From positions 13,429 through 77,428 of the forward strand of contig LCFP01000004.1 of assembly GCA_000999095.1 (NCBI GenBank): a stretch of DNA of 64,000 nucleotides. The letters are read 5' to 3'. The stretch is from Candidatus Gottesmanbacteria bacterium GW2011_GWA2_43_14 (GTDB lineage: Bacteria > Patescibacteriota > Microgenomatia > 2-02-FULL-39-11). Below are positions 10,487 to 64,000 of the stretch, piece by piece. Under the pieces are notes generated by a model. It was not told the DNA's origin. It did not search any database and worked only from the letters and a program-made list of their open reading frames with translations. Made by a program: the position numbers and the translations under genes. How positions within the stretch are numbered: the first letter of the stretch is position 1; each line of letters begins with the position of its first letter.

Positions 10487-10489
10487 AAA

Positions 10490-10792: not shown

Positions 10793-10797
10793 CCTGC

Positions 10798-11934
10798 TTA
10801 TTTTTTCAGAATATGAATAACTGCTGTTGCTCCGCTGCCCCCGATATTATGGGTTAAACCTAAATCAGCCCCCGGTACCTGTTTTTTGCCTGAAATACCT
10901 TTCAGTTGCTGGTAAACTTCCACCAGCTGTTTAACGCCGGTGGCACCAACCGGGTGACCGGCTGCTTTTAGTCCGCCTGACGTATTGACGACTAGCCTGT
11001 TATTTCCCAGTTGAGTCTTACCCTTTTCTATGGCGCTGGCTGCCTCACCTTTCGGAAAAAAACCAAGATCTTCCATGGCTATGATTTCGGCAATGGAAAA
11101 ACAATCATGGACCTCAGCCACCTTGATATCTTCAGGTTTTACTCCCGCCTCCTGATATGCTTTATTTGAAGCTGAAACAGCAGCTTTCAGCGTGGTTAAG
11201 TCGAGTCTTTGGGCCAAGCCCAGGCTGTCGGTGGCAGCTTGGGAAGCGCTGATTATTATCCCTTTTTTAAGCGGTTTAGATGACAGTATAAGAGCTGCAG
11301 CTCCGTCAGTAATCGGAGAGCAATCCAAAATTTTTAAAGGACTGGCCACCACCGGGCTTTCCATGACCATCTGCCGGGTAATCCTGTTTGTAAACTGGGC
11401 ATGCGAGTTGAGTGAGGCGTGAAAATGATTTTTTACCGAAACCTCGGCCATGGCTGCCTCGGTTGTTCCGTATTTAAGCATATGGGCGCGGGCAATAAGA
11501 GCATAAAGTGCCGGAAAGGTTGCACCTGCCTCACGTTCTCCTTCTGAACCGGCCCCCATAAGAGCCGCTGCCACAGCTTCCGGTTTGTGATCGGTCATTT
11601 TCTCAACTCCCACAACCAGCACGTTTTTATATTGCCCGGATTTAATTGCCAGGTAAGCCAAATGTGCGGCCATCCCCCCGGAAGCACAAGCAGCCTCGAT
11701 TTTTACCGCCGGTACACTTAAACCCAATTCTTCACTGAAAAAAGCCCCGAGATGATCCTGACCGCCTAAAGACGATGAAAGCATATTGCCGACAAAAACG
11801 GCCTCGATTTTATCCAATGCAAACCCGGCTTCATCAGCTGCAGCCAAGGCCACCTCTTTTACTAAATTTCTTGGGGAAACATCCCACAATTCACCGAATT
11901 TGGAAGTAACTCCTGACAATATCGTTACAGGCAT
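10798..11934 (-). CDS. Thiolase (acetyl-CoA C-acetyltransferase), archaeal type
   Basis: Thiolase-fold regions with active-site Cys and His. The protein ends in GGSGATAV, as thiolases do. Confidence 0.8.
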   Translation of the reverse strand: MPVTILSGVTSKFGELWDVSPRNLVKEVALAAADEAGFALDKIEAVFVGNMLSSSLGGQDHLGAFFSEELGLSVPAVKIEAACASGGMAAHLAYLAIKSGQYKNVLVVGVEKMTDHKPEAVAAALMGAGSEGEREAGATFPALYALIARAHMLKYGTTEAAMAEVSVKNHFHASLNSHAQFTNRITRQMVMESPVVASPLKILDCSPITDGAAALILSSKPLKKGIIISASQAATDSLGLAQRLDLTTLKAAVSASNKAYQEAGVKPEDIKVAEVHDCFSIAEIIAMEDLGFFPKGEAASAIEKGKTQLGNNRLVVNTSGGLKAAGHPVGATGVKQLVEVYQQLKGISGKKQVPGADLGLTHNIGGSGATAVIHILKK

Positions 11935-12968
11935 TAAATTTTTCCCCTGAATTTTAAGTAGTCAAGATAACTGATATATTTTTTTCTGTATTGGCGTTCT
12001 TGATAATTTGCTCCATTCCGCTTTTTTCCTGCATTTTTTGTCATGCGTAAAACCAAACCGTCAGAACCGGCGCCCGATCCGTAGGAAACCAGGAAAATCA
12101 AATCGTTTTGCTGCGCCTGGTCCAATGCCGCAGCAAGACCGATCAGCGAAGATGCCGTGTAAGGATTACCTATATCTTTTACTATTAGAGACGCGGCCGT
12201 CTGTTCTTCGGTAAAACCCAGTCTTTTTGCCGCTTCTTTGGGAAACTTGCCGTTGGGCATATGGAAAACGGCAAAACGGAAATCACGGGCTGTAAGTTTG
12301 CTTTTTTCAAAAAGCTGCCTGCCGCAATTTTCCACATGCGAAAAATAAGCTGGTTCACCGGTAAACCTGCCTCCATGACTGGGAAATCGGACGCCGTCCC
12401 TGCGCCAGAAATCAGGAGTGTCGGAAGAATATGAAGTAATTGCCACTATGTCAGCTATAGCTTTATGTTTTGTTCCTAATATAAAAGCTGCCGCTCCTGA
12501 AGCTGCCGTATATTCCAAAATATCGTGGGGTTTGGCCTGAGCGCAATCACTGCCAACAGCCATGGCGGTCGAAAAAGTACCTGATGAAATCATGGCAGCC
12601 AACGAAATCAAAGCCGTCGTGCCGGCTTTACAGGCAAATTCAAGATCAGTAGCCAGGTATGAATGACCAATTCCCAAAAATTCGCCTAAAATAGTCGATG
12701 TAGGATTGACGGCATAGGGATGGCTTTCAGAACCAACCATCAACGCTTCGATTTTGCCGGGATTTATTCCGGCATCAAGTAATGCGTCAAGAGAAGCCTG
12801 GTAAGCCATCGTCACAGCATCTTCATCCATGGCTGCGACCGACTTTTGGCTTATGCCGAGGGATCTCTCAATATCTGAAGCCAGTTTACCCCAAACCGGG
12901 GCAATTTCCGCTGTTTTGATTCTGTAATAAGGTAAATATAGACCGTATCCTAATATGCCTGCATCCAT
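11934..12968 (-). CDS. Hydroxymethylglutaryl-CoA synthase, archaeal type
   Basis: Condensing-enzyme fold with the catalytic Cys in the GxxxCxAG context, and an HMGS-like C-terminus. Lies in the mevalonate operon. Confidence 0.8.
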   Translation of the reverse strand: MDAGILGYGLYLPYYRIKTAEIAPVWGKLASDIERSLGISQKSVAAMDEDAVTMAYQASLDALLDAGINPGKIEALMVGSESHPYAVNPTSTILGEFLGIGHSYLATDLEFACKAGTTALISLAAMISSGTFSTAMAVGSDCAQAKPHDILEYTAASGAAAFILGTKHKAIADIVAITSYSSDTPDFWRRDGVRFPSHGGRFTGEPAYFSHVENCGRQLFEKSKLTARDFRFAVFHMPNGKFPKEAAKRLGFTEEQTAASLIVKDIGNPYTASSLIGLAAALDQAQQNDLIFLVSYGSGAGSDGLVLRMTKNAGKKRNGANYQERQYRKKYISYLDYLKFRGKI

Positions 12969-12987
12969 CTTGCTGATTTAAATATTT

Positions 12988-14136
12988 TTACTTGCCTCCT
13001 CTGGCAAGCAATCGGTGTGCCTTACCCAAACTTCCTGCGGCTATAGCTGACAATAAAGAAATTTCCCCGGCTAAAACAGCACCTCCAATAATTTCCGCAA
13101 ACTGTTGCGCTCTTTTGCCGGAGTCCCCTCCGGCTGATCCCAAAAGTAACAAGCTGGCCTTTTGTGAAGGCAGATATGTGCCTCCGCCAATCGTACCTAC
13201 GGGAAGATCCGGTAGATAAATACTGACCAATAGCTTTCCGTTTACGAATTTGGTCGAGGTTATACCCAAGCTTCCTTCGCTGACATGGGCGATATCCTGT
13301 CCGGTAGCCAGAAAAATAGCCGCGATAATATTGGCAAAATGTGCGTTAAATCCCAGAGAAGCGCTTATCATCGAACCCTTCAGATTTTTTTCCAGATTTA
13401 CCTCATGAATAAGCTCGGGAGTCGTTTTCAATATATGCCTGACTGTTTGCTTATCCAATAGTGTTTCTGCCCAAACCTCACGGCCGCGGCCAAGAAGAAA
13501 ATTTAAAAAAGAAGGCTTCTTATCGGTATCGAAATTAGCCGCCACAGCCAAACACTTAAAACCTGTATCGTTCTCAACCATGCGGATAATAGCTTCAGTT
13601 GCGAAAGTCACCATGTTCATACCCATCGCATCTTCCGTATCATAGCTGAATCTGATATACACATTAGTACCGAAATACTTGATAAACGTCCCGTTTAACC
13701 GCAAATGACCGGAGGTTTGTTCAGCTACAGCTTGCATCTTTGTAAAATTTTTACCCAACCACTCCTTAAGTTTCCTGCTTTCAATAATTCCTCCTGTTAT
13801 AAAAAGTGAGCCTCTGGTAATACCGGTATTTTCACTAGTCACCCGGACGCCCCCGGCTCTAGTTATTGCTTTACAGCCACGATTTACCGAAGCCACCAAA
13901 GCTCCTTCTGTTGTTGCCAGCGGCAGATAATACTCACTCATACCGTTGTCTCTGATAATTTTTAAAGGCCCGGCAATCCCTATTGGGACTTGGACCGCAC
14001 CGACCATATTTTCACAGTTCTTTTCTTCTGCCTGAGAAAAGCCAGGCGGATAAAAAGCATAATCAACCAGGGAAAGACCTGTTTTTTTCTCTAAATACTG
14101 GCGTCTTTTTTCTATTGTTTTTATCTTTCTTAGCAT
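12988..14136 (-). CDS. HMG-CoA reductase, class I
   Basis: DAMGMNMV catalytic motif, GTIGGGT and ENxIG-like motifs. About 382 aa. Confidence 0.85.
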   Translation of the reverse strand: MLRKIKTIEKRRQYLEKKTGLSLVDYAFYPPGFSQAEEKNCENMVGAVQVPIGIAGPLKIIRDNGMSEYYLPLATTEGALVASVNRGCKAITRAGGVRVTSENTGITRGSLFITGGIIESRKLKEWLGKNFTKMQAVAEQTSGHLRLNGTFIKYFGTNVYIRFSYDTEDAMGMNMVTFATEAIIRMVENDTGFKCLAVAANFDTDKKPSFLNFLLGRGREVWAETLLDKQTVRHILKTTPELIHEVNLEKNLKGSMISASLGFNAHFANIIAAIFLATGQDIAHVSEGSLGITSTKFVNGKLLVSIYLPDLPVGTIGGGTYLPSQKASLLLLGSAGGDSGKRAQQFAEIIGGAVLAGEISLLSAIAAGSLGKAHRLLARGGK

Positions 14137-14138: not shown

Positions 14139-14759
14139 TTAAATAAAGGGTATCCGGAAAATTCCTGATTTATATAAAATGAAGCTGTAAATAAAGACTA
14201 CCGGTACTATCAAAAGTTGTGTTAGGCAAATCCTGGCCAGGTCAAGTTTCAACCCGAAACGGAGTGTTAAATAATACAGAATAAGTTTCCAGGACAATAA
14301 AGTCAACGAATAGGTTATAAAAATTATACTCAGGATACCTCCCGGGACTGACCAGGTCCTTGGGGGAGGAATAAGTCGGTACAATAAAGCAGTTGCTATA
14401 AACCAAAGAAGTGTCGGCCATAAACTATAACTCCAAAGAACAGTAAGACGTAAAAGGCTGAAATTGCCCACTTGCCAAAGCTTGCCGGTCAGATAAAACA
14501 AAAAAAGCATCAGGATAATGCCTCCGGCCGTCCCGAACAGCAATAGGTTAAACCTGACTGTAAGCAGGTAGGGGTTTTCCATGCCCAATCTGATTATCGA
14601 GCTTGATAAAAAGAAAAAGATTACAAGCAGATAAATATAAATTGTTTGCTGGGTGAAAATTTTATCCCCGTGCGCCAGGTGACGGTAGGTATGGTAGGGC
14701 TCCTTGATTATACCGAAGCTGTTGCGCAGGAAAAAAACAAATGATGTAATCGGCCTCAT
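14139..14759 (-). CDS. Polytopic membrane protein, unknown function
   Basis: Several hydrophobic helices. Co-directional and overlapping with the sigma/anti-sigma pair. Confidence 0.4.
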   Translation of the reverse strand: MRPITSFVFFLRNSFGIIKEPYHTYRHLAHGDKIFTQQTIYIYLLVIFFFLSSSIIRLGMENPYLLTVRFNLLLFGTAGGIILMLFLFYLTGKLWQVGNFSLLRLTVLWSYSLWPTLLWFIATALLYRLIPPPRTWSVPGGILSIIFITYSLTLLSWKLILYYLTLRFGLKLDLARICLTQLLIVPVVFIYSFILYKSGIFRIPFI

Positions 14760-14998
14760 GGATAAAAAGCTCCCAGCTGGAGAATGGAGGCCAGTCTGAT
14801 GAGATAGGAGCCAAAAACAATAAAAGCGATAAAAGTCGCTGCCAGAGATAGAAAAACAAGACTTTTTAACGGGTATTCCTTGAAAACGGGTACGATCCTT
14901 TTATAAAGAGGAGTAAAAAGACCCATTTGCTGAGGCGGCACAAAAGCAATTTCCTGCATTTTGGCTACCATCATACGATACAGTTTGTCATTCTCCAT
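14756..14998 (-). CDS. Putative single-pass anti-sigma factor. Start chosen at MENDK; the ORF track extends it to 15109.
   Basis: Small protein with a cytoplasmic N-terminus and one TM helix, immediately downstream of the sigma factor and overlapping its stop by about 11 nt. Confidence 0.3.
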   Translation of the reverse strand: MENDKLYRMMVAKMQEIAFVPPQQMGLFTPLYKRIVPVFKEYPLKSLVFLSLAATFIAFIVFGSYLIRLASILQLGAFYP

Positions 14999-15551
14999 AA
15001 GCGTAATATGAGGCAAAGGCCTTCCTGGCCCGGAAAAGCTGGCTTTCCGCACTTTTAAAGGTAATTGAAAGTTTTTCAGCAATTTCTTCAACTGAATAGC
15101 CGTAAACATATTTCAGCTTTAAAATTACCTGATAGGTAGGCGTCAATTTCCTGAAAGTCTGTTTAATCCTTTGCTTCAGGATTTCTTCATCCAGTATTTC
15201 CTCGGGACCGAAAATGGTAGAAAGTAATGGTTCGAAGCCTTCAAATTTCGAAAAAACGATTTTTTGAATTTTTTTCCTGCGGTAAAAATCAATGATTTTA
15301 TGGTTGGCAATTGAACAAACAAATGTAAACAGGGAGCATTTAAAGGAAAAGTCCCTCAAAGCCTCAATCGTTGCCAAAAGCGAATCCTGGAGGATTTCCT
15401 CGATGTCTTCTTTTGTGTTAATTTTTTTACTGATATAAGTATAAAGCGAAGGGTGATATTTCTTATAAAAACTGGTCAGGGCAGCCTCATCACCCCTGAG
15501 GATTTGATATACAATCTTTCTTTCAGTTTTAAGGTCGGGGCTTCTTTTCAT
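14988..15551 (-). CDS. RNA polymerase sigma-70 family (ECF-type) sigma factor
   Basis: Region 2 (HPSLYTYISKK...DIEEILQDSLL) and a region 4 helix-turn-helix (YGYSVEEIAEKLSITFKSAESQLFRARK). Confidence 0.75.
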   Translation of the reverse strand: MKRSPDLKTERKIVYQILRGDEAALTSFYKKYHPSLYTYISKKINTKEDIEEILQDSLLATIEALRDFSFKCSLFTFVCSIANHKIIDFYRRKKIQKIVFSKFEGFEPLLSTIFGPEEILDEEILKQRIKQTFRKLTPTYQVILKLKYVYGYSVEEIAEKLSITFKSAESQLFRARKAFASYYAYGE

Positions 15552-15594
15552 ATAAACTTAGTCGCAATCATCATCAGTAATCCTTTATCCGCAT

Positions 15595-15623
15595 ATTATA
15601 ATTCCTGACAGGCTATTTGACAA
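15595..15623 (-). promoter_or_regulatory. Sigma-70-like promoter for the ECF sigma gene: TTGTCA, 17-nt spacer, TATAAT
   Basis: On the minus strand, -35 TTGTCA lies at 15618-15623 and a perfect -10 TATAAT at 15595-15600, about 44 nt upstream of the start. Confidence 0.4.
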
Positions 15624-15652
15624 AAGACTCTTCACCTCTTTACACTTAAGTT

Positions 15653-15961
15653 ATGCAGCTGGCCCAGGTTTCAATTGCAGAAAAATATCCACCGGCGAAA
15701 AACTTCCCCACACTCGCCTCTATCATTTCCTCATTCTTACCGAATCTGTTGATCATTGCCGGGGTTATATTTTTCATTCTGACGATTGTCGCGGGCTTCG
15801 TGGTCATCTCTACTGCCGGCCAGGGCGATCCCCACGGTGCGGAACGGGCAAAGTCTTTTCTTACTTATTCCGTTATCGGACTTTTCCTGATTTTTGCTTC
15901 ATACTGGATTTTACAGATAATTAATTACATTTCATTCGGTTCCATGAAAGGATTATTCTGA
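15653..15961 (+). CDS. Small two-helix membrane protein, pilin-like paralog 1 (VirB2/TrbC-like)
   Basis: Layout is TM helix, then AGQGDP, then a second TM helix. It shares the GGD(P/K) core with the three downstream paralogs. Confidence 0.5.
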   Translation: MQLAQVSIAEKYPPAKNFPTLASIISSFLPNLLIIAGVIFFILTIVAGFVVISTAGQGDPHGAERAKSFLTYSVIGLFLIFASYWILQIINYISFGSMKGLF

Positions 15962-16311
15962 TGGCTCTTCCGGCAGATGTGATTGGCAAAATTTCTCCCC
16001 TACCCGGCATGCCGGTCGGCATAAACCCCACCACGGGTGAACTGACGGGCCTCGTCACCATGATGAATGTCATCCTCCGGCTTCTTCTGATCGTGGGGGG
16101 GATTTGGGCATTGTTCAACATCGTCTTAGCCGGCATGGGTTTTATAGGTGCCGGCGGAGATCCGAAAAAAGTGGCTTCCTCCTGGGCTAAAATCTATTGG
16201 TCCTTTATCGGCTTGCTTATCATGGTTTCCGCCTTTCTCCTGGCAGCCATAATCGGTATCATGCTCTTCGGCAACCCGACAGCCATTTTATCTCCCAAAC
16301 TGACAAAATGA
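15961..16311 (+). CDS. Pilin-like paralog 2 (VirB2/TrbC-like)
   Basis: FIGAGGDPKKVASSWAKIYWSFIGLLIMV flanked by hydrophobic helices. Start and stop overlap with the neighbouring paralogs. Confidence 0.55.
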   Translation: MALPADVIGKISPLPGMPVGINPTTGELTGLVTMMNVILRLLLIVGGIWALFNIVLAGMGFIGAGGDPKKVASSWAKIYWSFIGLLIMVSAFLLAAIIGIMLFGNPTAILSPKLTK

Positions 16312-16742
16312 TATTGATATTTTTGTTCATTTCAATTCTTCTTTTTCAATCCCCTCCCTCTGTTTATGCTGCTCCCAGCAATTGTCTGGGGGGCGGTGAA
16401 GGGTTGGGACCGTTTGCCAAATTCCTTTGCGGAGGCGTAGGAGTGACGACTGATGCCGTCGGCAACAGACTCAACTCTGTCATCAGCGCTATCCTGGGCT
16501 TATTAACTGTTATAGCCGGTTTATGGTTTCTGATCCAGTTTATTCTCGCCGGTTTTAATTGGATCAATGCCGGAGGAGACAAGAATAATGCCCAGGCGGC
16601 CTGGCAGAAAATGACCAATGCCGTTGTCGGACTCATTATAGTCGTTTTTGCCTGGGTATTTGTGGCTTTGATCGGTAAACTGCTCAATATAAATATCCTT
16701 GATCCCGGAGATATGTTAAAAAATTTAAAAATAACAGGCTAA
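16308..16742 (+). CDS. Pilin-like paralog 3, carrying a cleavable signal peptide and a Cys pair. Start chosen at MILIFLF.
   Basis: The signal peptide ends VYA-AP. Then CLGGGEG..FLCGG, a TM helix, NWINAGGDKNNAQAAWQKM, and a second TM helix. ATGA overlap with paralog 2. Confidence 0.55.
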   Translation: MILIFLFISILLFQSPPSVYAAPSNCLGGGEGLGPFAKFLCGGVGVTTDAVGNRLNSVISAILGLLTVIAGLWFLIQFILAGFNWINAGGDKNNAQAAWQKMTNAVVGLIIVVFAWVFVALIGKLLNINILDPGDMLKNLKITG

Positions 16743-17093
16743 ATGGAAAAAGTATTGCTGGCACAAATTAAAAATCCGGTTGTACCGAGCTTAAAAAATC
16801 CCAATAATGCTCCGCAAATTATCGGCAAATTTTTTGCCGGGTTTGTGGCATTACTGCTGATTGTCGCTACCCTCTGGTCTTTTTTTAATCTGATTTTGGG
16901 AGCATTTAACTGGATTTCCTCAGGAGGGGACAAGGGCAAACTGGAAACCGCCCAACAGAAGATGCTGCAGGCGGTAATCGGGTTAATCCTGGTTTTTGCT
17001 TCATGGGCAATTTTTATCGTGCTACTCCAGTTTTTGGGATTGTCTCAGGGTCTGGGAGGTAAAATCGAGTTTAAACTACCTACGCTTCTTTAA
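16743..17093 (+). CDS. Pilin-like paralog 4 (VirB2/TrbC-like)
   Basis: NWISSGGDKGKLETAQQKMLQAVIGLILVFASW between two hydrophobic helices. It begins immediately after the stop of paralog 3. Confidence 0.55.
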   Translation: MEKVLLAQIKNPVVPSLKNPNNAPQIIGKFFAGFVALLLIVATLWSFFNLILGAFNWISSGGDKGKLETAQQKMLQAVIGLILVFASWAIFIVLLQFLGLSQGLGGKIEFKLPTLL

Positions 17094-36717: not shown

Positions 36718-37998
36718 ATGGAACAACACTCTGTACCGCGTAATATTTCCAGCTTCCAATTTCACCTTATCGGTGACATGACGGTCCGCCAATTTGCTTA
36801 TCTTCTCGGAGGCTGCCTTATCGGTTTCGTCCTGTATAAACTGCTGCCTCTGCCGGGATTTTTAGCCATTCCTGCCGCCGGAGCGGCGGTTTTAACCGGT
36901 TTTGCTTTTGCCTTTGTCCCAATTCAGGAAAGGCCGCTGGACAAATGGATTGTCGCATTCATAAAAAGCATAACTTCTCCGACTCAATATCTCTGGCAAA
37001 AACAGGAAGAGATGCCGGACATTTTAGCTTATGCATACAACCGGCCTGTTAAAAGTTTGCCGCAAAACCATCTGGAGGCTCATGCGGATGCTAAAAAAAA
37101 ACTGGATAATTATTTGAACTCTTTGCCTAACCAACCCCACCAGCAAATAAATATCAGGGAAAAACATTATGTAGACAGTACTCTCAAACTCTTCAATACT
37201 ACAAACAGTTTTATTCCGGCAGCAGCTCCTTCATTTACCGCTCCGTCTTCCATACCGCCTGTTTCTGTTTCTGCGCTTCCGTTTACAACGGTGCTTCCGA
37301 TAACCCCTGTCGTCAAACCCGTACAGTCCCCTCCGCCCCCGGTAAAAGCGGATGTCCTCCATCCGCCTTTATCCGCAGCAGTTGCCCCGGTGAATCCTAA
37401 ACCGCTCCCTCCGGCAATACAAAAACCAATTGAAGTCAAAAAAGCGGCGCCCCCACAGCTTCAGCAAATACCGGTTGATCATTCGGAATTAACGGAGATA
37501 CGCCGGGAAAAAGAAAAACTGGAAAAAGAACTGGAAAGACTTAAAGCGGAGATAAGTAAATCTTCCAAAATAACCATCAAACCTGTTGAAGAAAAAGAGC
37601 CGGTCAAACCAACCATCAAGACGGTTACTCCCAAAAGCGCTGTCAATGAAATAGGCATTCCCAAACTTCCCCAGGCTCCAAATATCATTATGGGAGTCAT
37701 CAAAGACAGTAATAAGAGGCTCTTGCCCAATATTATTCTGACCATCAAGGATATCAAAGACAATCCGCACCGGGCTTTGAAAACCAACCGCTTGGGTCAA
37801 TTCTCAACCGCTACCCCCCTGCAAAACGGAACATATTTTGTCGAAGCTGAAGACCCGATGAAAAGATATACTTTTGACATTGCCGAGATCAATTTGTCCG
37901 GCAAGATCTTTCTGCCTATTGAAATTACGGCCAAGGGAGAAAAAGAAAAAATGCGTGAGCAGCTAAACAAAGAACTGTTCAGCAATCCGGGGATATAA
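36718..37998 (+). CDS. Membrane protein with N-terminal TM helices, a Pro-rich linker, a coiled coil and a C-terminal carboxypeptidase-regulatory-like beta-sandwich domain. Candidate T4SS-associated component.
   Basis: Two N-terminal hydrophobic helices. A PxP-rich stretch at about residues 170-250. EKEKLEKELERLKAEI coiled coil. The C-terminal IIMGVIKDSNKRLLPNIILTIKD...NGTYFVEA matches the CarboxypepD_reg pattern. It lies immediately upstream of the VirB4-like ORFs. Confidence 0.5.
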   Translation: MEQHSVPRNISSFQFHLIGDMTVRQFAYLLGGCLIGFVLYKLLPLPGFLAIPAAGAAVLTGFAFAFVPIQERPLDKWIVAFIKSITSPTQYLWQKQEEMPDILAYAYNRPVKSLPQNHLEAHADAKKKLDNYLNSLPNQPHQQINIREKHYVDSTLKLFNTTNSFIPAAAPSFTAPSSIPPVSVSALPFTTVLPITPVVKPVQSPPPPVKADVLHPPLSAAVAPVNPKPLPPAIQKPIEVKKAAPPQLQQIPVDHSELTEIRREKEKLEKELERLKAEISKSSKITIKPVEEKEPVKPTIKTVTPKSAVNEIGIPKLPQAPNIIMGVIKDSNKRLLPNIILTIKDIKDNPHRALKTNRLGQFSTATPLQNGTYFVEAEDPMKRYTFDIAEINLSGKIFLPIEITAKGEKEKMREQLNKELFSNPGI

Positions 37999-38022: not shown

Positions 38023-38694
38023 ATGCAGCCGACTTCAGCACCGATCAGGGCGACTACCCAGGAATTTCTGGATATCGAGGACATCATCGATGATATTTTA
38101 ATCCTGAGAAGCGGCGGAGCGGCGGTTTTAATTGAAACAACTGCCGTCAATTTCGGCCTTTTGTCAGAAGAAGAGCAGGATGCCCTAATTTACGCTTATG
38201 CTTCGTTTTTAAATTCCCTGTCCTTTCCCCTTCAGGTGGTTATCCTGTCAAAGCGCATGGACATTTCTTCTTATATTGAATTCATTCTTCAGGAAGAAAC
38301 CAAACAGCCTAATCCTGTTATTAAAGACAGAATCAGAAATTACCGTGAATTCATACTTTCTACAATCAAAGAAAACCGTGTCCTGGAAAAAAAATTCTAT
38401 TTAGTCGTCCCTTTTTCTCCGTTGGAGTTGGGGATTAAAGAAGCATTTTCCGTATCCAACAAAAAGAAAAAGCTGCCTTTTACTAAAGACTACATCCTTT
38501 CCAGATCAAAAACATCACTTTTTCCCAAAAGAGACCACATCCTGAGACAGCTGGGCCGCATAGGACTTAAAGGCAGGCAGCTATCAACCCAGGAACTGGT
38601 GGAGCTTTTCTACAACCTATACAACCCGACCTTTACCGGTGAAAAACTGGGAGAAACAATAGGTTATACTAAACCGTTAGTTGAAGGGGTTTAA
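38023..38694 (+). CDS. VirB4/TcpF-type conjugative ATPase, N-terminal domain, present as a separate ORF
   Basis: TQEFLDIEDIIDDILILRSGGAAVLIETTAVNFGLLSEEEQDALIYAYASFLNSL resembles the N-terminus of Gram-positive VirB4 homologs. The ORF ends with tandem TAA TAA stops, 6 nt before the next ATG and in the same frame. Confidence 0.55.
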   Translation: MQPTSAPIRATTQEFLDIEDIIDDILILRSGGAAVLIETTAVNFGLLSEEEQDALIYAYASFLNSLSFPLQVVILSKRMDISSYIEFILQEETKQPNPVIKDRIRNYREFILSTIKENRVLEKKFYLVVPFSPLELGIKEAFSVSNKKKKLPFTKDYILSRSKTSLFPKRDHILRQLGRIGLKGRQLSTQELVELFYNLYNPTFTGEKLGETIGYTKPLVEGV

Positions 38695-38700: not shown

Positions 38701-40644
38701 ATGCTGTCTTTTTTATCTAAAAAGAAAACTGTCAACATCAATCCAGTCCAGACACCGGTATCTCCGGTCCCACCCGCTCTACAGCCGGCAGGACAAACAC
38801 CCGGTGCATCTGCCGCTCAGCCTGTCCCGGTTCAAACTAACACCGCTTCTAAAGCTGCAGAAATAGCCAAAAACACCCAGCTTCAGGCAGCCAAAGAGAA
38901 AATAACCAAAGGCCTGGTCAATATAAAAGACATTATCGCTCCGTCTTTGGTTGAAGTTGATTTTGACCACATTAGAATCAACAACGTCTTTTACAGGACT
39001 TTGTTCGTGGCCGGTTATCCCCGTTATGTAGCTGCAAATTGGCTGCATCCGCTGCTTTCTTTCGACAAATCCCTTTTTATCTCGATGTATATTTATCCGA
39101 CGGAATCAAAAGTCATCCTGGAAGACCTCAAGAGAAAAATTGCCGAGATGGAAGCGACCATTCAGGTAGATATGAAAAGAGGCAAAGTCATTGACCCGTC
39201 AGTCCAGGTTTCGCTTGATGACGCCTTGGCCCTTCAGGCGCAATTGGCAAAAGGAGCCGAAAGATTTTATCAATTTTCCCTCTACATCACAATTCCTTCC
39301 GAAACAATTGAGGATTTAAACAGGTTTGCTAAAGAGGTTGAATCTACCTTGGGTTCACTTTTGATTATCCCCAAACATGCCACTTTATCACAGGAAGAAG
39401 GATTTAAATCAACCCTGCCGATGTCCATTGACAAGCTTGACGTCACCAGAAATATGGACACTACCTCCCTGGCGACTACCTTTCCCTTTACCACCGCTTC
39501 CTTATCCGCCAACGAAGGCATCCTCTATGGAATCAATGAACATGACGGCAGTCTGGTTATTTTCAACCGTTTCAGTCTGGAAAACAGCAATAGCGTTATC
39601 TTCGGAAAATCCGGTGCCGGCAAATCTTTTCTGGTCAAATTGGAAGTCATGCGTACCCTGATGTTCGGGGCTGATGTTTTTGTCATTGATCCGGAAGGGG
39701 AATACAAGGACATAACCAGGGCTTTGGGTGGTGATCTTCTTGACTTCTCATTCAATTCACCCATCAAAATCAATCCTTTCGACCTGTCAGGCATCGTCAC
39801 TGAAGGTGAAAATGAACTCGGCTTAAAAATCCTCTCCATTCACGGACTGATGAGAGTTATCATGGGTGAACTTTCTCCGACTGAAGACGCCCTGCTGGAT
39901 AAAGCATTGGTCCTTACATATAAACAGAAAGGGATAACGCCGGACCCGGAAACCCAGAAAAAAGAACCGCCTTTGATGGAAGATTTGTACAAGGTGCTTT
40001 TGGGAATGGAAGAGGAAAATGCCCGACACCTGGCAGAACGGCTGGAGAAATTTGTTAAAGGATCACTGGCGGGCATCTTTAATCAGCAGTCAAATGTCTC
40101 CCTGAAAAACCAGCTGACGGTTTTCAACATCAAGGAACTGGAGGCGGAACTGCGCCCGATGGCCATATTTTCCATCCTGGATTTTATCTGGACAAAAATC
40201 AAAAGGGATGTCAAAAAAAGATTGCTGATTGTAGATGAAGCATGGTACCTGATGAAACATCCGGATTCCGCCACCTTCCTCTACGGCATAGCCAAAAGAG
40301 CCCGGAAGTATTATCTCGGCGTAACCACCATCACCCAGGATGTCGAAGACTTCCTCTCAACCGACCACGGCAAAGCCATTATTACCAATTCGAGCCTGCA
40401 GATTCTCCTCAAACAATCAACGGCAGCCATCGATAAGCTGGCAGAGGTTTTTTATCTTTCAAGCGGCGAAAAGCACTTCCTGCTCTCGGCCGGGGTAGGG
40501 GAAGGACTGTTCTTTGCCGGAGCTTCACACGCTGCCGTCCAATTTATTGCATCTTCTCAGGAATATCAGCTGGCGACCAGCAAACCTCAGGAAGTAAGGC
40601 AGGATCCCTCCTTTCCCAACGTGCCTAAAATTCCCAGTGTATAA
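38701..40644 (+). CDS. VirB4/TraE/TrsE-type type IV secretion ATPase, C-terminal ATPase portion
   Basis: Walker A FGKSGAGKSF, Walker B RLLIVDEAWYL, and the conserved KYYLGVTTITQDVEDF region. Confidence 0.75.
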   Translation: MLSFLSKKKTVNINPVQTPVSPVPPALQPAGQTPGASAAQPVPVQTNTASKAAEIAKNTQLQAAKEKITKGLVNIKDIIAPSLVEVDFDHIRINNVFYRTLFVAGYPRYVAANWLHPLLSFDKSLFISMYIYPTESKVILEDLKRKIAEMEATIQVDMKRGKVIDPSVQVSLDDALALQAQLAKGAERFYQFSLYITIPSETIEDLNRFAKEVESTLGSLLIIPKHATLSQEEGFKSTLPMSIDKLDVTRNMDTTSLATTFPFTTASLSANEGILYGINEHDGSLVIFNRFSLENSNSVIFGKSGAGKSFLVKLEVMRTLMFGADVFVIDPEGEYKDITRALGGDLLDFSFNSPIKINPFDLSGIVTEGENELGLKILSIHGLMRVIMGELSPTEDALLDKALVLTYKQKGITPDPETQKKEPPLMEDLYKVLLGMEEENARHLAERLEKFVKGSLAGIFNQQSNVSLKNQLTVFNIKELEAELRPMAIFSILDFIWTKIKRDVKKRLLIVDEAWYLMKHPDSATFLYGIAKRARKYYLGVTTITQDVEDFLSTDHGKAIITNSSLQILLKQSTAAIDKLAEVFYLSSGEKHFLLSAGVGEGLFFAGASHAAVQFIASSQEYQLATSKPQEVRQDPSFPNVPKIPSV

Positions 40645-62355: not shown

Positions 62356-63810
62356 TCAACGGTTTTCTTTTTTACCCCCCAGTAAATTGCTTATAATTGG
62401 CATTTGCTTCATATAGTAGAATTGGCTGGCAGCGCCCATCGATGTTTGCGCAGCTCCTGTTAACGGGGCAAAAGCTGTTCCGGCTGATATTGGCAGAATC
62501 GGCTTGGGTTTGAACAATTTCTTGATTTGGGCAATCAAACTTGGTGCCAGAAAAAGAACTCCCAAGCCCAGGAAAGCCGGAAAAGACCCTTTTCCGGGTA
62601 CACCAATTAAAGGCGGTGAAAATAGGTCGCCGGTATCGGTGTTAATAGTTGTCAGAAACTCGGCAAACATGAGAACAGCCACGGTTGTGGGAAAAACAAC
62701 CAAATTGGCAATGACATTCATGATCCAGTCCGAAAAAGCAGTCCGGCCGGGAACCGCTTCCAAAAGCAACTGTATCGGACCAAGAACAATAGAAATTATC
62801 AGTTGGATATAGGAATTTAACAACAGCATAAAGATTCTGATAAAAGTAAAAAGAAGACCTAAGAATACCAACAGTATTCCGAGTAATCCGATTAAACTTA
62901 TACCCAGCGCCACACCACCGAAGCCGAGCAGACCTCCAAGAACTCTTAATGCAATCGTCACTCCGGCACCGCCGACACTGTAGGCGGCAAGATTCTTAAG
63001 CAGAAAATCGTCCAAAGAGCTGAATCCTCCTCCCATGACGTGCTTAAAGAGATCGCCAAAATCCGCTGTCAGGAAATAGGTTTGGATTTCGGCAGCACGG
63101 CTGGCATGACCCATCCCTTCGGACAGGATGCTGATAAGTATGGCCATAGTGACATACATGAAGTCAACCAGGAAACCTACGATGGCATAGGAAAGCGTGA
63201 TTAAAAGAAGCGACAAAACAATCCTGGGCAGAGCTGCCTGGACGCTGATGACGGTTTTCGGATCAATTTTCATCCGGAAAATCACCATAAAGCCGATGGC
63301 GACCATGACGATGATGATGACTGTATAGGCAATATTGCGGGTGACTTTCCAGAGGGGAAGGATAGGAGCCAGTCCGGCAAAGCCGATTCCCTGGGCATAG
63401 ACCGGTTTTGCCAGCAAACCGGCATTCTGCATCAGATCTTGGGCATAATAGATGCCGGAAGCCGGCGGCAGGGCAAACAGGGAGGCTGTCAGGATCGATA
63501 CTCCGTTCAAAGCGGTATTTTTATTGCATTTTTCCGGGTCACGGCGGGTACAGCCTAAATTGCTGGCCAAAGCGTTTAATGTTGCTTCGAACTGAAATTC
63601 GTTTACATGCAGTCCGTCTACACAAGGCTTACCGCTTGCTTCGGCGCATTCATCTGAGGCATCCTTTTGCAGGTGGTAATTTTCCGGATCGGAAAGATCA
63701 TAAACATCATTGGGATTTTGCGCTTGTGAGGATGACGGTAATAAAAGGCTGAAAGCCACCAGCAGAATGCTGATTACCATAAGCCAATATCTTCCGGATA
63801 GGTATTTCAT
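62356..63810 (-). CDS. Cys-rich polytopic membrane protein, candidate VirB6/TrbL-like T4SS channel component
   Basis: Signal peptide, then a Cys-containing exoplasmic segment, then at least eight hydrophobic helices. It lies immediately downstream of a pilin-like paralog. Confidence 0.35.
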   Translation of the reverse strand: MKYLSGRYWLMVISILLVAFSLLLPSSSQAQNPNDVYDLSDPENYHLQKDASDECAEASGKPCVDGLHVNEFQFEATLNALASNLGCTRRDPEKCNKNTALNGVSILTASLFALPPASGIYYAQDLMQNAGLLAKPVYAQGIGFAGLAPILPLWKVTRNIAYTVIIIVMVAIGFMVIFRMKIDPKTVISVQAALPRIVLSLLLITLSYAIVGFLVDFMYVTMAILISILSEGMGHASRAAEIQTYFLTADFGDLFKHVMGGGFSSLDDFLLKNLAAYSVGGAGVTIALRVLGGLLGFGGVALGISLIGLLGILLVFLGLLFTFIRIFMLLLNSYIQLIISIVLGPIQLLLEAVPGRTAFSDWIMNVIANLVVFPTTVAVLMFAEFLTTINTDTGDLFSPPLIGVPGKGSFPAFLGLGVLFLAPSLIAQIKKLFKPKPILPISAGTAFAPLTGAAQTSMGAASQFYYMKQMPIISNLLGGKKENR

Positions 63811-63844: not shown

Positions 63845-64000
63845 TCAAGGCGCTTGGGGTATTTCAAAAACCGTAATGGTCACACCGGTATAGACTTCGA
63901 TAAGGCGGAATATCAGAAAGGCAATCACCATCAGGAAAAGACCGGCAACAGCATAAGTCATTGTTTGTTTGGCCGAAGCAGTAGCTTTGGGATCACCGCC
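63845..64000 (-). CDS. Pilin-like paralog 5 (VirB2/TrbC-like). It is 5' truncated by the window edge.
   Basis: Translation of the minus strand gives GGDPKATASAKQTMTYAVAGLFLMVIAFLIFRLIEVYTGVTITVFEIPQAP*. This carries the same GGDP core and following helix as the 15.6-17.1 kb paralogs. Confidence 0.5.
   Translation of the reverse strand, partial: GGDPKATASAKQTMTYAVAGLFLMVIAFLIFRLIEVYTGVTITVFEIPQAP

What the first reader, a model, noticed from the sequence alone, without database searches (positions are those of the whole stretch)
14756..17093. Tandem array of four paralogous VirB2/TrbC-like pilin genes under an adjacent ECF sigma/anti-sigma pair
Four consecutive small ORFs run from 15653 to 17093, with start/stop overlaps ATGA and TAAATG. 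Each has the same architecture: a hydrophobic helix, the motif (N/G)W/F-I-x-(A/S)GGD(K/P), about 10 polar residues, and a second hydrophobic helix. That is the architecture of T4SS VirB2/TrbC pilins; compare the mature N-terminus of Agrobacterium VirB2, GGGTDP. Paralog 3 alone carries a classic cleavable signal peptide and a Cys pair, so the paralogs may have diverged into major and minor or tip subunits. The array sits directly downstream of a sigma-70/ECF gene that has a perfect TATAAT promoter, and of a single-pass putative anti-sigma gene. This suggests envelope-signal-controlled expression of pilus subunits. A fifth paralog lies at the far end of the window, and a VirB4 ATPase lies at 38 kb. 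Together they suggest a dispersed T4SS/pilus system with an unusually large pilin repertoire.
Basis: partly seen in the sequence, partly recalled or inferred. Interest (0 to 1): 0.75.

Follow-up and report, generated by a model that had tools for sequence, protein, structure and literature searches.

The report
Pilin-like gene array beside sigma factor
Four adjacent small genes in this ultra-small groundwater bacterium (Candidatus Gottesmanbacteria) encode pilin-like parts of its type IV secretion system, a gene arrangement already described for this phylum; what looks undescribed is that the array is an ancient fixed-order set of six gene types that usually sits back-to-back with a sigma-factor regulatory module.

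Summary
Four tandem ORFs (15653-17093, +) are paralogs, 26-34% identical. Each is a two-helix hairpin with a GGD(K/P) loop, and each matches Pfam PF18895 T4SS_pilin. A fifth copy sits at the window end, and VirB4 at 38.7 kb is real. The ECF sigma and its small membrane partner are on the opposite strand. They are transcribed divergently from the array, so the array is not downstream of them.

The window comes from a Candidatus Gottesmanbacteria genome (Patescibacteria). Tandem arrays of 2-11 VirB2-like pilin genes are already published for this phylum (2023, 2025), so the array is a new member of a known kind.

Three points I could not find in the searchable papers:
- The array is an ancient, order-conserved set of six orthologous classes. 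Here it is split into classes 1-4, and classes (5)-6 plus a VirB6-like protein 46 kb away.
- In 62 of 76 related loci, an ECF sigma / small membrane protein / Yip1-like module lies back-to-back with class 1.
- Classes 1-4 are read from a conserved sigma-70-type, apparently leaderless promoter. No ECF-type motif is present.

A functional link between the sigma module and the pilins is plausible. Direct ECF control is not supported. Homology to classical VirB2 is not demonstrable.

The parts
15653..15961 (+). p1: class-1 pilin-like protein, 102 aa, two-helix hairpin with a GQGDP loop and N-terminus MQLAQV
   Evidence: PF18895 34.1 bits, cut-off 26.6. All 10 best hits are position-1 genes of six-gene arrays. 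100% identical to UV73_C0004G0030.
15961..16311 (+). p2: class-2 pilin-like protein, 116 aa, GGDPKK loop. Its start overlaps the p1 stop by 1 nt (TGATG).
   Evidence: PF18895 27.5 bits. Best hits are all position 2.
16308..16742 (+). p3: class-3 pilin-like protein, 144 aa, with a Sec-type signal peptide (residues 1-21), two Cys and the GEGLGPF motif. ATGA overlap with p2.
   Evidence: PF18895 37.1 bits; weak TrbC match at 17.9 bits, below the 27.9 cut-off; NF045849 'pilin-like conjugal transfer protein' 27.1 bits, below 40. Best hits are all position 3.
16743..17093 (+). p4: class-4 pilin-like protein, 116 aa, NWISSGGDKGK loop. It starts directly after the p3 stop (TAAATG). Its 3' end overlaps the convergent NTP-transferase gene by 14 nt.
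   Evidence: PF18895 21.4 bits, below the cut-off. AF2 model is a hairpin, H16-55 and H60-93, pLDDT 78. Best hits are positions 4 and 5.
15617..15646 (+). Promoter of the p1-p4 operon: -35 TTGACA (15617-15622), 18-nt spacer, -10 TACACT (15641-15646), then 6 nt to the p1 ATG. This predicts a leaderless mRNA.
   Evidence: The same TTGAC-N17/18-TA(C/G/A)ACT element lies in front of the first pilin gene in about 32 related loci. In about three quarters of them an ATG follows 5-9 nt after the -10.
15595..15623 (-). Promoter of the sigma operon: -35 TTGTCA (15623-15618), 17-nt spacer, -10 TATAAT (15600-15595). Its -35 hexamer overlaps the -35 of the pilin promoter on the other strand.
   Evidence: 11 of 12 consensus matches; sequence.
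14988..15551 (-). ECF-type (group 4) sigma factor, 187 aa, transcribed divergently from p1
   Evidence: Sigma70_r2, Sigma70_r4_2 and Sigma70_ECF. TIGR02937 90.9 bits, cut-off 42.9. Homologs lie next to the array in 62 of 76 loci. Three of three sigma-side look-ups show the array.
14756..14998 (-). Small single-pass membrane protein, 80 aa from the ATG at 14998. Candidate anti-sigma factor. It overlaps the sigma stop by 11 nt.
   Evidence: One C-terminal hydrophobic helix. A 58-88 aa ORF (most 64-84) occupies the same position in all 23 loci inspected; a single hydrophobic helix passed my threshold in about half of them. No Pfam or NCBIfam match.
14139..14759 (-). Yip1-like polytopic membrane protein, 206 aa, third gene of the sigma module. 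It overlaps the previous stop by 4 nt.
   Evidence: No Pfam hit for the window copy. Orthologs in L084 and L085 carry PF04893 Yip1; weak Yip1 hit for a homolog. The conserved N-terminal xPY(Q/E/H)T motif is present across lineages.
63848..64000 (-). C-terminal 51 codons of a class-6 pilin-like gene (GGDPKATASAKQ...), cut by the window end
   Evidence: E 2.8e-11 against the HMM of the four paralogs; translation. 75% identical to position 6 of L011, and all 10 best hits are position 6.
62356..63810 (-). VirB6-like polytopic membrane protein, 484 aa, directly downstream of the class-6 gene, with its own TTGACA-N18-AATAAT-N8-ATG promoter
   Evidence: No Pfam or NCBIfam hit. For the AF2 model (pLDDT 72), the five best Foldseek PDB matches come from R388 stalk-complex entries (TrwJ/VirB5-TrwI/VirB6). 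Their chain lengths of 260-272 fit TrwI/VirB6; chain identity was inferred from length, not checked. E 0.012-0.038, prob 0.98-1.0. The gene follows the pilin array in most related loci.
36718..37998 (+). PrgI-family (VirB3-like) protein, 426 aa
   Evidence: PF12666 PrgI 39.8 bits.
38023..38694 (+). TrsD-like protein resembling the VirB4 N-terminal domain, 223 aa
   Evidence: NF045975 (VirB4 positions 130-277) and NF041427 TrsD, both below cut-off. A homolog sits between the PrgI-like gene and virB4 in L083.
38701..40644 (+). VirB4-like T4SS ATPase, 647 aa, next to dnaN and dnaA
   Evidence: NF045971 CD1110-family VirB4, 401 bits against a cut-off of 325. P-loop_TraG and AAA_10.

Best explanation
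The four ORFs are classes 1-4 of an ancient six-class set of pilin-like two-helix membrane proteins (Pfam PF18895). [quoted passage not shown]

Shown:
- Family membership, hairpin fold and tandem paralogy.
- Each class has its own orthologs, at the same position in the array, across Gottesmanbacteria. The class order 1-2-3-(4)-5-6 is also kept in the more distant arrays titled Woesebacteria, Pacebacteria or Paceibacterota.
- In most relatives the array runs on to a VirB6-like membrane protein.
- In this lineage the array was split at the natural gap between class 4 and class 5. Classes 1-4 stay next to the sigma module. Classes (5)-6 and the VirB6-like gene lie 46 kb away.

Inferred:
- p1-p4 are made from one polycistronic mRNA. 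It starts at a conserved sigma-70-type promoter 6 nt upstream of the p1 ATG (leaderless) and is translationally coupled.
- The proteins insert with N- and C-termini outside and the GGD(K/P) loop in the cytoplasm.
- The six classes have fixed, non-interchangeable roles in one T4SS-associated surface or stalk structure, assembled with the VirB6-like, PrgI/VirB3-like and split VirB4 proteins.
- Class 5 is the likeliest major subunit. It is the most conserved class, is often duplicated, and has its own strong promoter and Shine-Dalgarno site. Classes 1-4 would then be co-expressed accessory (minor) subunits.

The sigma module (ECF sigma, 80-aa single-pass protein, Yip1-like protein) is a conserved back-to-back neighbour whose -35 element overlaps that of the pilin promoter. 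It is probably functionally tied to the array. The sequence gives no sign that this sigma itself reads the pilin promoter.
For: - Family: PF18895 hits for p1-p4. 119 of 120 homologs hit PF18895. The family has 81,716 cluster representatives at E<=1e-3.
- Source: the window is Ca. Gottesmanbacteria GW2011 contig UV73_C0004.
- Fold: hairpin model.
- Position-specific orthology in 28 six-gene arrays: the best cross-genome hit is the same position in 741, 756, 735, 522, 753 and 756 of 756 comparisons for positions 1-6. Same-position identity is 61%, different-position identity 34%.
- Rate of change: per-class identity is 54-77%, against 58% for sigma and 60% for HMG-CoA reductase. Class order is kept in the more distant arrays.
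- Spacing: median gaps are 2.5-5.5 nt within classes 1-4, 87 nt before class 5 and 52.5 nt before class 6.
- Promoters: conserved TTGAC-N17/18-TAVACT-N6-ATG in front of class 1. Separate promoters for class 5, class 6 and the VirB6-like gene.
- T4SS context. VirB6-like fold. In L083, class 5/5/6 genes lie directly upstream of PrgI/TrsD/VirB4 homologs.
- Topology: p3 and some orthologs carry a signal peptide. Arrays from records titled Woesebacteria end in secreted proteins of about 950 aa whose C-terminus is a pilin-like hairpin.
- Sigma adjacency: 62 of 76 loci, falling into 26 sigma clusters at 70% identity or 5 at 50%. The three-gene sigma module persists where HMG-CoA reductase synteny is lost. 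Three of three look-ups from the sigma side show the array.
- Literature: pilin arrays are essential in Southlakia (PMC10633639) and widespread in Patescibacteria (PMC12102498).
Against: - No pilus has been seen in any Patescibacterium; 'pilin' is an inferred name.
- The profile-profile comparison with plasmid VirB2/TrbC proteins is not significant (prob 0.8%, E 0.07).
- No solved structure matches by sequence.
- Foldseek on the hairpin model finds nothing specific.
- p4 scores below the Pfam cut-off.
- The positive-inside rule does not clearly fix the topology (my count of K/R in the translations).
- Leaderless initiation, operon structure and the role assigned to each class are inferred from sequence only.
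- Seven full arrays have no sigma gene in the 2-4 kb held upstream. Southlakia has none next to its array.
- All related loci were fetched with a class-3/4-type motif, which biases the sample towards Microgenomatia.
Confidence: 0.65

Rival explanations
1. First reader's model. The adjacent ECF sigma factor is released from its membrane anti-sigma by an envelope signal and directly transcribes the pilin array.
For: - The divergent sigma-array pairing is conserved in 62 of 76 loci, across lineages where other synteny is lost.
- The sigma gene is always followed by a small membrane protein, translationally coupled or closely spaced.
- Conserved divergent pairs of a regulator and a non-regulator gene usually mark regulator-target relations (Korbel et al. 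2004, cited from memory).
- The non-consensus -10 TACACT of the class-1 promoter is conserved across many genomes. This could reflect a special sigma preference.
Against: - The class-1 promoter is TTGACA-N18-TACACT. The same type of promoter precedes ribosomal protein L25, lytR, dnaN and other genes in the window.
- It lacks the AAC / CGT signature of known ECF promoters (established knowledge).
- The sigma gene's own promoter is TTGTCA-N17-TATAAT, so there is no sign of ECF autoregulation.
- In loci from records titled Woesebacteria or Pacebacteria the -10 is a plain TATAAT or TATACT.
- The small membrane protein matches no anti-sigma family.
- Southlakia's essential six-pilin array has no adjacent sigma.
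Confidence: 0.2
2. The sigma module and the pilin array are only inherited neighbours, with no regulatory or functional connection. The sigma serves its own operon: the Yip1-like protein and, in Gottesmanbacteria, the mevalonate pathway genes.
For: - In Gottesmanbacteria the sigma heads a tightly packed operon that runs into HMG-CoA reductase and the mevalonate genes.
- Both divergent promoters look housekeeping.
- Seven arrays lack the sigma gene, and so does Southlakia.
Against: - The pairing survives in lineages where the genes beyond the Yip1-like gene differ. It also survives the array's own rearrangement in this lineage: classes 1-4 stayed with sigma while classes 5-6 moved.
- The two start codons are only 36-39 nt apart in many loci from records titled Woesebacteria, with overlapping promoters. 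That is hard to keep by chance over this divergence.
Confidence: 0.3
3. The paralogs are interchangeable variants of one major pilin, kept for surface variation or to match different host strains. This was suggested for Patescibacteria arrays by analogy with Bartonella and Anaplasma VirB2 paralogs.
For: - Low identity between paralogs, 26-34%.
- The suggestion is made in PMC12102498.
- Lineage-specific duplications of class 1 and class 5 exist.
Against: - Each class is conserved as an ortholog at a fixed position: 61% identity for the same position, 34% for different positions.
- The classes evolve no faster than neighbouring housekeeping genes.
- Each class has its own conserved N- and C-terminal motifs.
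- The order is kept in the more distant arrays titled Woesebacteria, Pacebacteria or Paceibacterota.
Confidence: 0.07
4. The proteins are not filament subunits. They are small integral-membrane parts of the T4SS channel or stalk, or an unrelated family of small membrane proteins such as holin-like or immunity proteins.
For: - No significant link to VirB2 by profile or by fold.
- T4SSs of monoderm bacteria normally lack pili (PMC12102498, PMC12857230).
- A two-helix hairpin is a generic fold.
- Scattered weak hits to other membrane families: Colicin_V in 8 of 120 and a holin family in 1 of 120.
Against: - TrbC/VirB2 is the second most frequent weak Pfam match, in 17 of 120 homologs.
- Weak hits to the Mycoplasma ICE 'pilin-like conjugal transfer protein' family.
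- Consistent linkage to VirB6-like and VirB3/VirB4 genes rules out an unrelated function.
- Fusion proteins with an N-terminal region of about 880 aa ahead of a C-terminal hairpin argue for surface display.
Confidence: 0.2

Closest known systems
Six-gene VirB2-like pilin array of the Southlakia epibionticum ML1 T4SS (SEML1_0014-0019; Wang et al. 2023, PMC10633639; reviewed in PMC12857230)
   Same: - Tandem PF18895 genes, six in number, divergent in sequence.
- Located next to a VirB6-like gene.
- Part of a monoderm-type T4SS near the replication origin.
- Shown to be essential there.
   Different: - In Southlakia the array is divergent from the VirB6-like gene and no sigma factor is adjacent.
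- Here the array is split 4 + 2 and paired with an ECF sigma module.
- Class-by-class orthology to Southlakia was not tested.
VirB2 arrays of Patescibacteria surveyed by Quinonero-Coronel et al. 2025 (PMC12102498)
   Same: - The same Pfam models were used.
- 441 arrays of 2-11 genes were found, most abundant in Microgenomatia and Saccharimonadia.
- Mean identity within arrays is 25%.
- T4SS genes lie near dnaA. All of this fits the window.
   Different: - That survey does not mention sigma factors or promoters.
- It treats paralog divergence as possible variation for host adaptation. The analysis here shows fixed orthologous classes in a fixed order.
- It reports VirB6 as scarce in Microgenomatia. 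Here a conserved 484-aa protein after the array has a VirB6-like predicted fold.
Classical TrbC/VirB2 pilins (PF04956; Agrobacterium VirB2, RP4 TrbC)
   Same: - Size of about 100-145 aa.
- Two hydrophobic helices joined by a short charged loop.
- Encoded with T4SS genes.
- p3 has a cleavable leader.
   Different: - Scores are below the Pfam cut-off, and hhalign is not significant.
- p1, p2 and p4 have no long leader.
- There is no adjacent virB3-virB4.
- The GGD motif is in the loop, not at the mature N-terminus.
- The host has a single membrane.
Minor-pilin / pseudopilin operons of type IV pili and type II secretion (e.g. GspH-I-J-K with major GspG)
   Same: This is a working analogy only. 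Several distinct, conserved, co-transcribed small subunits accompany one more conserved and separately expressed subunit.
   Different: Unrelated fold and unrelated assembly machinery. No evidence here for a tip or priming complex.
ECF sigma / single-pass anti-sigma pairs (e.g. SigW-RsiW; the short CnrH-CnrY type)
   Same: - A sigma with regions 2 and 4 only.
- Followed by a small single-pass membrane protein with a short cytoplasmic N-terminal helical part, translationally coupled or closely spaced.
   Different: - No anti-sigma domain was detected.
- Almost no extracytoplasmic part.
- No ECF-type autoregulated promoter.
- A conserved third partner of Yip1 type.
Mycoplasma ICE 'Mbov_0395 family pilin-like conjugal transfer protein' (NF045849)
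   Same: A small two-helix protein of a monoderm T4SS with a CD1110/Mbov_0397-type VirB4. p3 and p4 give weak matches.
   Different: Scores of 27.1 and 18.8 are below the cut-off of 40. I know of no tandem six-class arrays for that family (not tested).

Membership tests
PF18895 T4SS_pilin (Patescibacteria VirB2-like pilin arrays) | Pfam model score at or above the gathering cut-off (26.6 bits) | tested here: met
   p1 34.1, p2 27.5, p3 37.1 bits; p4 21.4 is below the cut-off. 119 of 120 homologs match.
PF18895 T4SS_pilin (Patescibacteria VirB2-like pilin arrays) | Small protein forming a hairpin of two long hydrophobic helices | tested here: met
   AF2 model of p4: H16-55 and H60-93, pLDDT 78. 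Hydrophobicity scan of all four.
PF18895 T4SS_pilin (Patescibacteria VirB2-like pilin arrays) | Tandem array of divergent paralogs (2-11 genes, about 25% identity) | tested here: met
   Four adjacent genes, 26-34% identical. Relatives carry 6-11.
PF18895 T4SS_pilin (Patescibacteria VirB2-like pilin arrays) | Genomic association with a VirB4-type T4SS | tested here: met
   VirB4 at 38701-40644 in the same window. Class 6 lies next to a VirB6-like gene. In L083, pilin genes lie directly upstream of PrgI/TrsD/VirB4 homologs.
PF18895 T4SS_pilin (Patescibacteria VirB2-like pilin arrays) | Polymerises into an extracellular pilus | not testable with these tools
   No pilus of this kind has been reported (PMC12857230 calls it a possibility).
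TrbC/VirB2 pilins (PF04956) | Pfam model score at or above the cut-off (27.9 bits) | tested here: not met
   Only p3 matches, at 17.9 bits, E 0.0036. 17 of 120 homologs give weak hits, best E 1e-4.
TrbC/VirB2 pilins (PF04956) | Profile-profile similarity to bona fide VirB2/TrbC proteins | tested here: not met
   hhalign of 120 homologs against 8 plasmid VirB2/TrbC proteins: probability 0.8%, E 0.07, 41 columns. The VirB2 set was narrow (MPF_T, Alphaproteobacteria).
TrbC/VirB2 pilins (PF04956) | Long N-terminal leader removed by signal peptidase | tested here: not met
   Only p3 has a signal peptide. p1, p2 and p4 cannot have one, because stop codons lie just upstream. They carry a short M-x(1-6)-[LV]-[LFY]-A-[QE] motif instead.
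TrbC/VirB2 pilins (PF04956) | Encoded immediately upstream of virB3-virB4 | tested here: not met
   The PrgI/VirB3-like and VirB4 genes lie about 20 kb away.
ECF (group 4) sigma factor with cognate anti-sigma | Only sigma regions 2 and 4 | tested here: met
   Sigma70_r2 + Sigma70_r4_2 + Sigma70_ECF, 187 aa. TIGR02937 90.9 bits, cut-off 42.9.
ECF (group 4) sigma factor with cognate anti-sigma | Co-transcribed membrane anti-sigma factor with a recognisable anti-sigma domain | tested here: inconclusive
   An 80-aa single-pass protein overlaps the sigma stop. A 58-88 aa ORF holds the same position in all 23 loci inspected. No anti-sigma family match. Binding was not tested.
ECF (group 4) sigma factor with cognate anti-sigma | ECF-type promoter (AAC in the -35, CGT-like -10) upstream of its own operon and its targets | tested here: not met
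   Own promoter is TTGTCA-N17-TATAAT; pilin promoter is TTGACA-N18-TACACT.
VirB6/TrbL (for the 484-aa protein at 62356-63810) | Polytopic membrane protein with a VirB6 fold, encoded with pilin and T4SS genes | tested here: inconclusive
   No Pfam or NCBIfam hit. The five best Foldseek PDB matches are chains from R388 stalk-complex entries (TrwJ/VirB5-TrwI/VirB6). Their lengths of 260-272 fit TrwI/VirB6, though chain identity was not checked. E values are only 0.012-0.038 and TM-scores 0.38-0.46 on the target.

The most novel reading that the evidence does not exclude
The six conserved classes build one heteromeric T4SS filament or stalk in a single-membrane bacterium. Class 5 is the major subunit. 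Classes 1-4 form a minor-subunit initiation or tip complex, and in some lineages the tip is a pilin-anchored giant adhesin. The adjacent ECF sigma / mini anti-sigma / Yip1-like module senses the membrane pool or assembly state of these hairpin subunits and tunes expression through the overlapping divergent promoters. This would be a dedicated regulatory circuit for the organelle that Patescibacteria need for their host-dependent life.
Probability: 0.12. Interest if true: 0.8.

Novelty: new variant of a known kind. Interest (0 to 1): 0.45.

Why it matters
The T4SS and its pilin array are essential for the only genetically tractable Patescibacterium. What the array builds, and how it is controlled, is unknown.

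- Fixed roles. The array is a fixed, ordered set of six orthologous classes that evolve at housekeeping rates. This argues for six non-redundant structural roles rather than surface variation. It tells experimenters which genes to compare across species.
- Candidate regulator. The conserved sigma / small membrane protein / Yip1-like module is the first concrete candidate regulator for this system in the class Microgenomatia.
- Missing VirB6. The conserved 484-aa neighbour is a candidate for the 'missing' VirB6 of that class.
- Testable promoters. The conserved leaderless promoter gives a defined target for transcript mapping in metatranscriptomes.

None of this changes the basic picture already published.

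Tried and rejected
- Foldseek of the p4 hairpin model against PDB gave no hit at E<=0.001 and only generic helical hairpins.
- hmmsearch of the family profiles (20 and 120 sequences) against PDB sequences found no pilin.
- hhalign against eight plasmid VirB2/TrbC proteins was not significant. I therefore do not claim homology to classical VirB2.
- The first search for related loci attempt with the 20-sequence alignment failed for lack of a conserved stretch. A narrower class-3/4 alignment worked but biases the sample.
- I looked for an ECF-type or otherwise array-specific promoter motif. TTGAC-N17-20-TAVACT occurs almost only at array starts in the related loci, but those sites are orthologous. 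It also precedes dnaN in the window. Other window promoters are of the same type, so I treat it as a housekeeping promoter.
- The palindrome TTGCGCAA, found in class-5 promoters of relatives, is absent from the window.
- Pfam and NCBIfam searches of the small membrane protein and of the window's Yip1-like protein gave nothing. Only orthologs carry Yip1 hits.
- The afdb50 fold library was unavailable.
- The positive-inside rule did not give a clear topology.
- No tRNA or Rfam element is present in the window.
- Literature searches for a sigma-pilin or ECF-Yip1 link in this phylum found nothing relevant.

Full report
**What is there.** The region 15653-17093 holds four consecutive + strand ORFs of 102, 116, 144 and 116 aa. 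They are paralogs, 26-34% identical. All share the same plan: a long hydrophobic helix, a loop (A/S)G(G/Q)GD(K/P) followed by about ten polar residues, and a second hydrophobic helix. The junctions are TGATG (p1/p2), ATGA (p2/p3) and TAAATG (p3/p4). Only p3 has a full signal peptide and two cysteines. Stop codons just upstream leave no room for a leader in p1, p2 or p4. An HMM of the four finds one more copy in the window, the last 51 codons of a gene on the minus strand at 63848-64000, cut by the window end. The window has no tRNA or Rfam element.

**Correction of the geometry.** The ECF-type sigma gene (14988-15551) and the small membrane protein behind it are on the minus strand. They are transcribed away from the array, not into it. 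The small protein most likely starts at the ATG at 14998 (80 aa), overlapping the sigma stop by 11 nt. A 206-aa polytopic membrane protein follows with a 4-nt overlap. HMG-CoA reductase and the rest of a mevalonate operon come next.

**Identity of the four proteins.**
- p1-p3 score above the curated cut-off of Pfam PF18895 'T4SS_pilin'. p4 is just below. p3 alone gives a weak sub-threshold TrbC/VirB2 match.
- The four genes are UV73_C0004G0030 and the three genes that follow it, in Candidatus Gottesmanbacteria bacterium GW2011 (Patescibacteria, Microgenomatia). All are annotated hypothetical.
- Of 120 homologs, 119 match PF18895. TrbC is the second most frequent, though weak, match (17 of 120).
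- A profile of the family finds 81,716 cluster representatives at E<=1e-3 in 1.84 billion proteins, so the family is very large.
- An AlphaFold model of p4 is a helical hairpin with pLDDT 78.
- Such a fold is not diagnostic. Foldseek against PDB finds nothing specific. Family profiles find no solved pilin by sequence.
- A profile-profile comparison with eight plasmid VirB2/TrbC proteins is not significant: probability 0.8%, E 0.07.
- So membership in PF18895 is met. Homology to classical VirB2 is not demonstrated.
In VirB2 that motif precedes helix 1. Here it lies between the helices.

**T4SS context.**
- The window also encodes a PrgI-family (VirB3-like) protein, a TrsD-like protein resembling the VirB4 N-terminal domain, and a VirB4 ATPase of the CD1110 family (401 bits, cut-off 325). 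All lie next to dnaN and dnaA.
- The fifth paralog is followed by a 484-aa polytopic membrane protein with no family match.
- For the AlphaFold model of that protein (pLDDT 72), the five best PDB matches are chains from R388 stalk-complex entries, with lengths that fit TrwI/VirB6. They are weak but specific: E 0.012-0.038, probability 0.98-1.0.
- The literature notes that VirB6 is 'scarce' in Microgenomatia, presumably through divergence. This protein is a candidate for it.

**What is already known.** Wang et al. 2023 described a series of essential predicted pilin genes in the T4SS cluster of Southlakia epibionticum. Their tables list six PF18895 genes, SEML1_0014-0019, divergent from a VirB6-like gene. 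Quinonero-Coronel et al. 2025 searched 3,035 Patescibacteria genomes with PF04956 and PF18895. They reported 441 arrays of 2-11 pilin genes, most abundant in Microgenomatia and Saccharimonadia, with 25% mean identity within arrays and T4SS genes near dnaA. A 2025 review repeats this. The tandem array as such is therefore a further member of a known kind, and its size is not unusual.

**Related loci.** I fetched 80 loci from one-genome-per-species contigs using a class-3/4 motif. I scored them with my own ORF calls and HMMs.

**Related loci: six ordered classes.**
- Most Gottesmanbacteria carry six pilin genes followed by the VirB6-like gene.
- In 28 such arrays, the best hit of each gene in every other genome is the gene at the same position. 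For positions 1-6 this holds in 741, 756, 735, 522, 753 and 756 of 756 comparisons.
- Identity is 61% for the same position and 34% for different positions.
- Per-class identity is 54-77%. That is no lower than the neighbouring sigma (58%) or HMG-CoA reductase (60%).
- The order 1-2-3-(4)-5-6 is kept in the more distant arrays from records titled Woesebacteria, Pacebacteria or Paceibacterota, with lineage-specific duplications.
- The window's p1-p4 are classes 1-4. The terminal fragment is class 6.
- Genes 1-4 are packed, with median gaps of 2.5-5.5 nt. There are 87 nt before class 5 and 52.5 nt before class 6.
- The window's lineage split the array exactly at the gap between class 4 and class 5. 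The same split is seen in a relative, in L004 and L071.
- This pattern argues for six fixed, non-interchangeable roles. It argues against the published suggestion that paralog divergence serves surface variation.

**Related loci: the sigma module.**
- In 62 of 76 loci with enough upstream sequence, a homolog of the window's sigma lies divergently next to the first pilin gene. Three more have it within 1-2 kb.
- These sigmas fall into 5 clusters at 50% identity and 26 at 70%.
- Behind the sigma there is always a short ORF of 58-88 aa. Then comes a polytopic protein with a conserved N-terminal xPY(Q/E/H)T motif. This holds even where the mevalonate genes are absent.
- Orthologs of the polytopic protein carry Pfam Yip1.
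- Three of three look-ups that started from sigma orthologs found the six-gene array, the VirB6-like gene and a convergent protein of about 1,290 aa. That large protein corresponds to window 58412-62350.
- Seven full arrays lack a sigma in the sequence held. Southlakia has none next to its array.
- I found no paper that mentions this association.

**Promoters.**
- In the window, TTGACA (15617-15622), 18 nt and TACACT (15641-15646) end 6 nt before the p1 ATG.
- The same TTGAC-N17/18-TA(C/G/A)ACT element stands before the first pilin gene in about 32 relatives. The spacer sequence varies, and an ATG usually follows 5-9 nt after the -10. This implies a leaderless mRNA.
- On the other strand, TTGTCA-N17-TATAAT serves the sigma gene. 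The two -35 hexamers overlap.
- In many loci from records titled Woesebacteria the two start codons are only 36-39 nt apart, each with its own -10 box.
- These are sigma-70-type promoters. The same type precedes dnaN, the L25 gene, lytR and others in the window, often equally close to the ATG.
- No AAC/CGT-type ECF motif is present at either gene. Direct transcription of the array by the neighbouring ECF sigma is therefore not supported by sequence.
- The conserved, physically overlapping divergent arrangement still makes some functional coupling likely.
- The conserved non-consensus -10 TACACT is unexplained.

**Topology.** Two things place the N-terminus outside, and hence the GGD loop in the cytoplasm and the C-terminus outside. 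One is the signal peptide of p3 and of some class-3 orthologs. The other is the secreted proteins of about 950 aa, in arrays from records titled Woesebacteria, that end in a pilin-like hairpin. Classes 1-5 share a short N-terminal motif, M-x(1-6)-[LV]-[LFY]-A-[QE]. It aligns with the cleavage region of the full signal peptides where these exist. Its meaning is unknown. Class 6 has a conserved cysteine pair.

**Most likely mechanism (inferred).** p1-p4 are co-transcribed and co-translated accessory subunits. Three further units are expressed separately: class 5 (the most conserved class, with its own strong promoter and Shine-Dalgarno site in relatives), class 6, and the VirB6-like protein. Together with the PrgI-like and split VirB4 proteins, all of these build the surface or stalk structure of a monoderm-type T4SS. 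The sigma / small membrane protein / Yip1-like module is probably linked to this system, but how is open.

**Verdict.**
- The 'pilin-like T4SS array' reading is supported at the level of PF18895 and genomic context. It is not supported at the level of VirB2 homology.
- The 'ECF sigma drives the array' reading is unproven, and the promoter sequences speak against it.
- The array is a member of a published kind.
- The fixed six-class order, the 4 + 2 split, the conserved sigma module and the VirB6-like assignment are modest new comparative findings.

Noticed in passing
window 62356-63810 (-): A 484-aa polytopic membrane protein without any Pfam or NCBIfam match. It is conserved right after the pilin array in relatives. 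For its AF2 model, the five best PDB matches are chains from R388 stalk-complex entries whose lengths fit TrwI/VirB6. It may be the divergent VirB6 that surveys report as scarce in Microgenomatia.
   Followed up: partly
window 58412-62350 (+): A 1,312-aa protein with no family match, one C-terminal hydrophobic helix and a Gly-rich tail. It is convergent with the VirB6-like gene. A protein of about 1,290 aa holds the same place in L084 and L086, and a truncated gene does so in L085. It may be a T4SS-associated surface protein.
   Followed up: no
window 32653-36557 (-): ClpB is read as two overlapping ORFs in different frames (34458-36557 and 32653-34512). The second AAA domain is interrupted by an insert of about 265 aa with no Hint/intein or other Pfam match. 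This could be a frameshift, an assembly error or an unusual insertion.
   Followed up: partly
window 38023-40644 (+): VirB4 appears split into a 223-aa TrsD-like N-terminal protein and a 647-aa ATPase. The PrgI-family gene upstream is 426 aa, although the PrgI domain covers only its first 90 residues.
   Followed up: no
window 3609-14136 (-): A run of minus-strand genes for the mevalonate pathway (HMG-CoA reductase in the window; HMG-CoA synthase-like, thiolase and GHMP kinases seen in the syntenic relatives) follows the sigma / small protein / Yip1-like genes with 2-4 nt spacing. The sigma may therefore head a very long operon.
   Followed up: no
L056 7073-9955, and the equivalent gene in L057, L060, L066, L069, L075, L078, L079: Arrays from records titled Woesebacteria end with a secreted protein of about 915-965 aa whose last 70 residues form a PF18895-like hairpin. 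This looks like a pilin-anchored giant ectodomain, possibly an adhesin.
   Followed up: partly
gap between class 4 and class 5 in L013-L042 and others (e.g. L029 5888-5952): The class-5 pilin gene has its own promoter region. It contains TTGACA, then the perfect palindrome TTGCGCAA about 12 nt downstream, then TATAAT, then a 20-40 nt leader with a GGAGG site. The palindrome could be an operator. It does not occur in the window.
   Followed up: partly
window 15641-15646 and orthologous sites in about 30 loci: The -10 box of the class-1 promoter is kept as TA(C/G/A)ACT rather than TATAAT across genomes whose spacers have diverged completely. The reason for conserving the non-consensus bases is unexplained.
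   Followed up: partly
N-termini of classes 1-5 (window p1 MQLAQV, p4 MEKVLLAQI; relatives): A short shared motif, M-x(1-6)-[LV]-[LFY]-A-[QE], aligns with the cleavage region of the full signal peptides seen in p3 and in L018 position 3. It could be a very short leader or processing site. Agrobacterium VirB2 is also cut at A|Q (from memory).
   Followed up: no
representative proteins P0361-P0403: The best hits of the family profile are long ORFs with 2-16 pilin-like hairpins in one polypeptide (e.g. 1,775 aa with 16). They may be true fusions, or arrays read through by a gene caller using another genetic code.
   Followed up: no
record titles of L009, L011, L013, L016 and many others: Many of the species-representative MAGs that carry these typical Patescibacteria loci are titled 'uncultured Gammaproteobacteria' or 'Pseudomonadales', and one 'archaeon'. 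These labels are apparently wrong.
   Followed up: no
window 34714-35859 (+): A 381-aa ORF runs antisense within the ClpB gene. It is most likely spurious.
   Followed up: no
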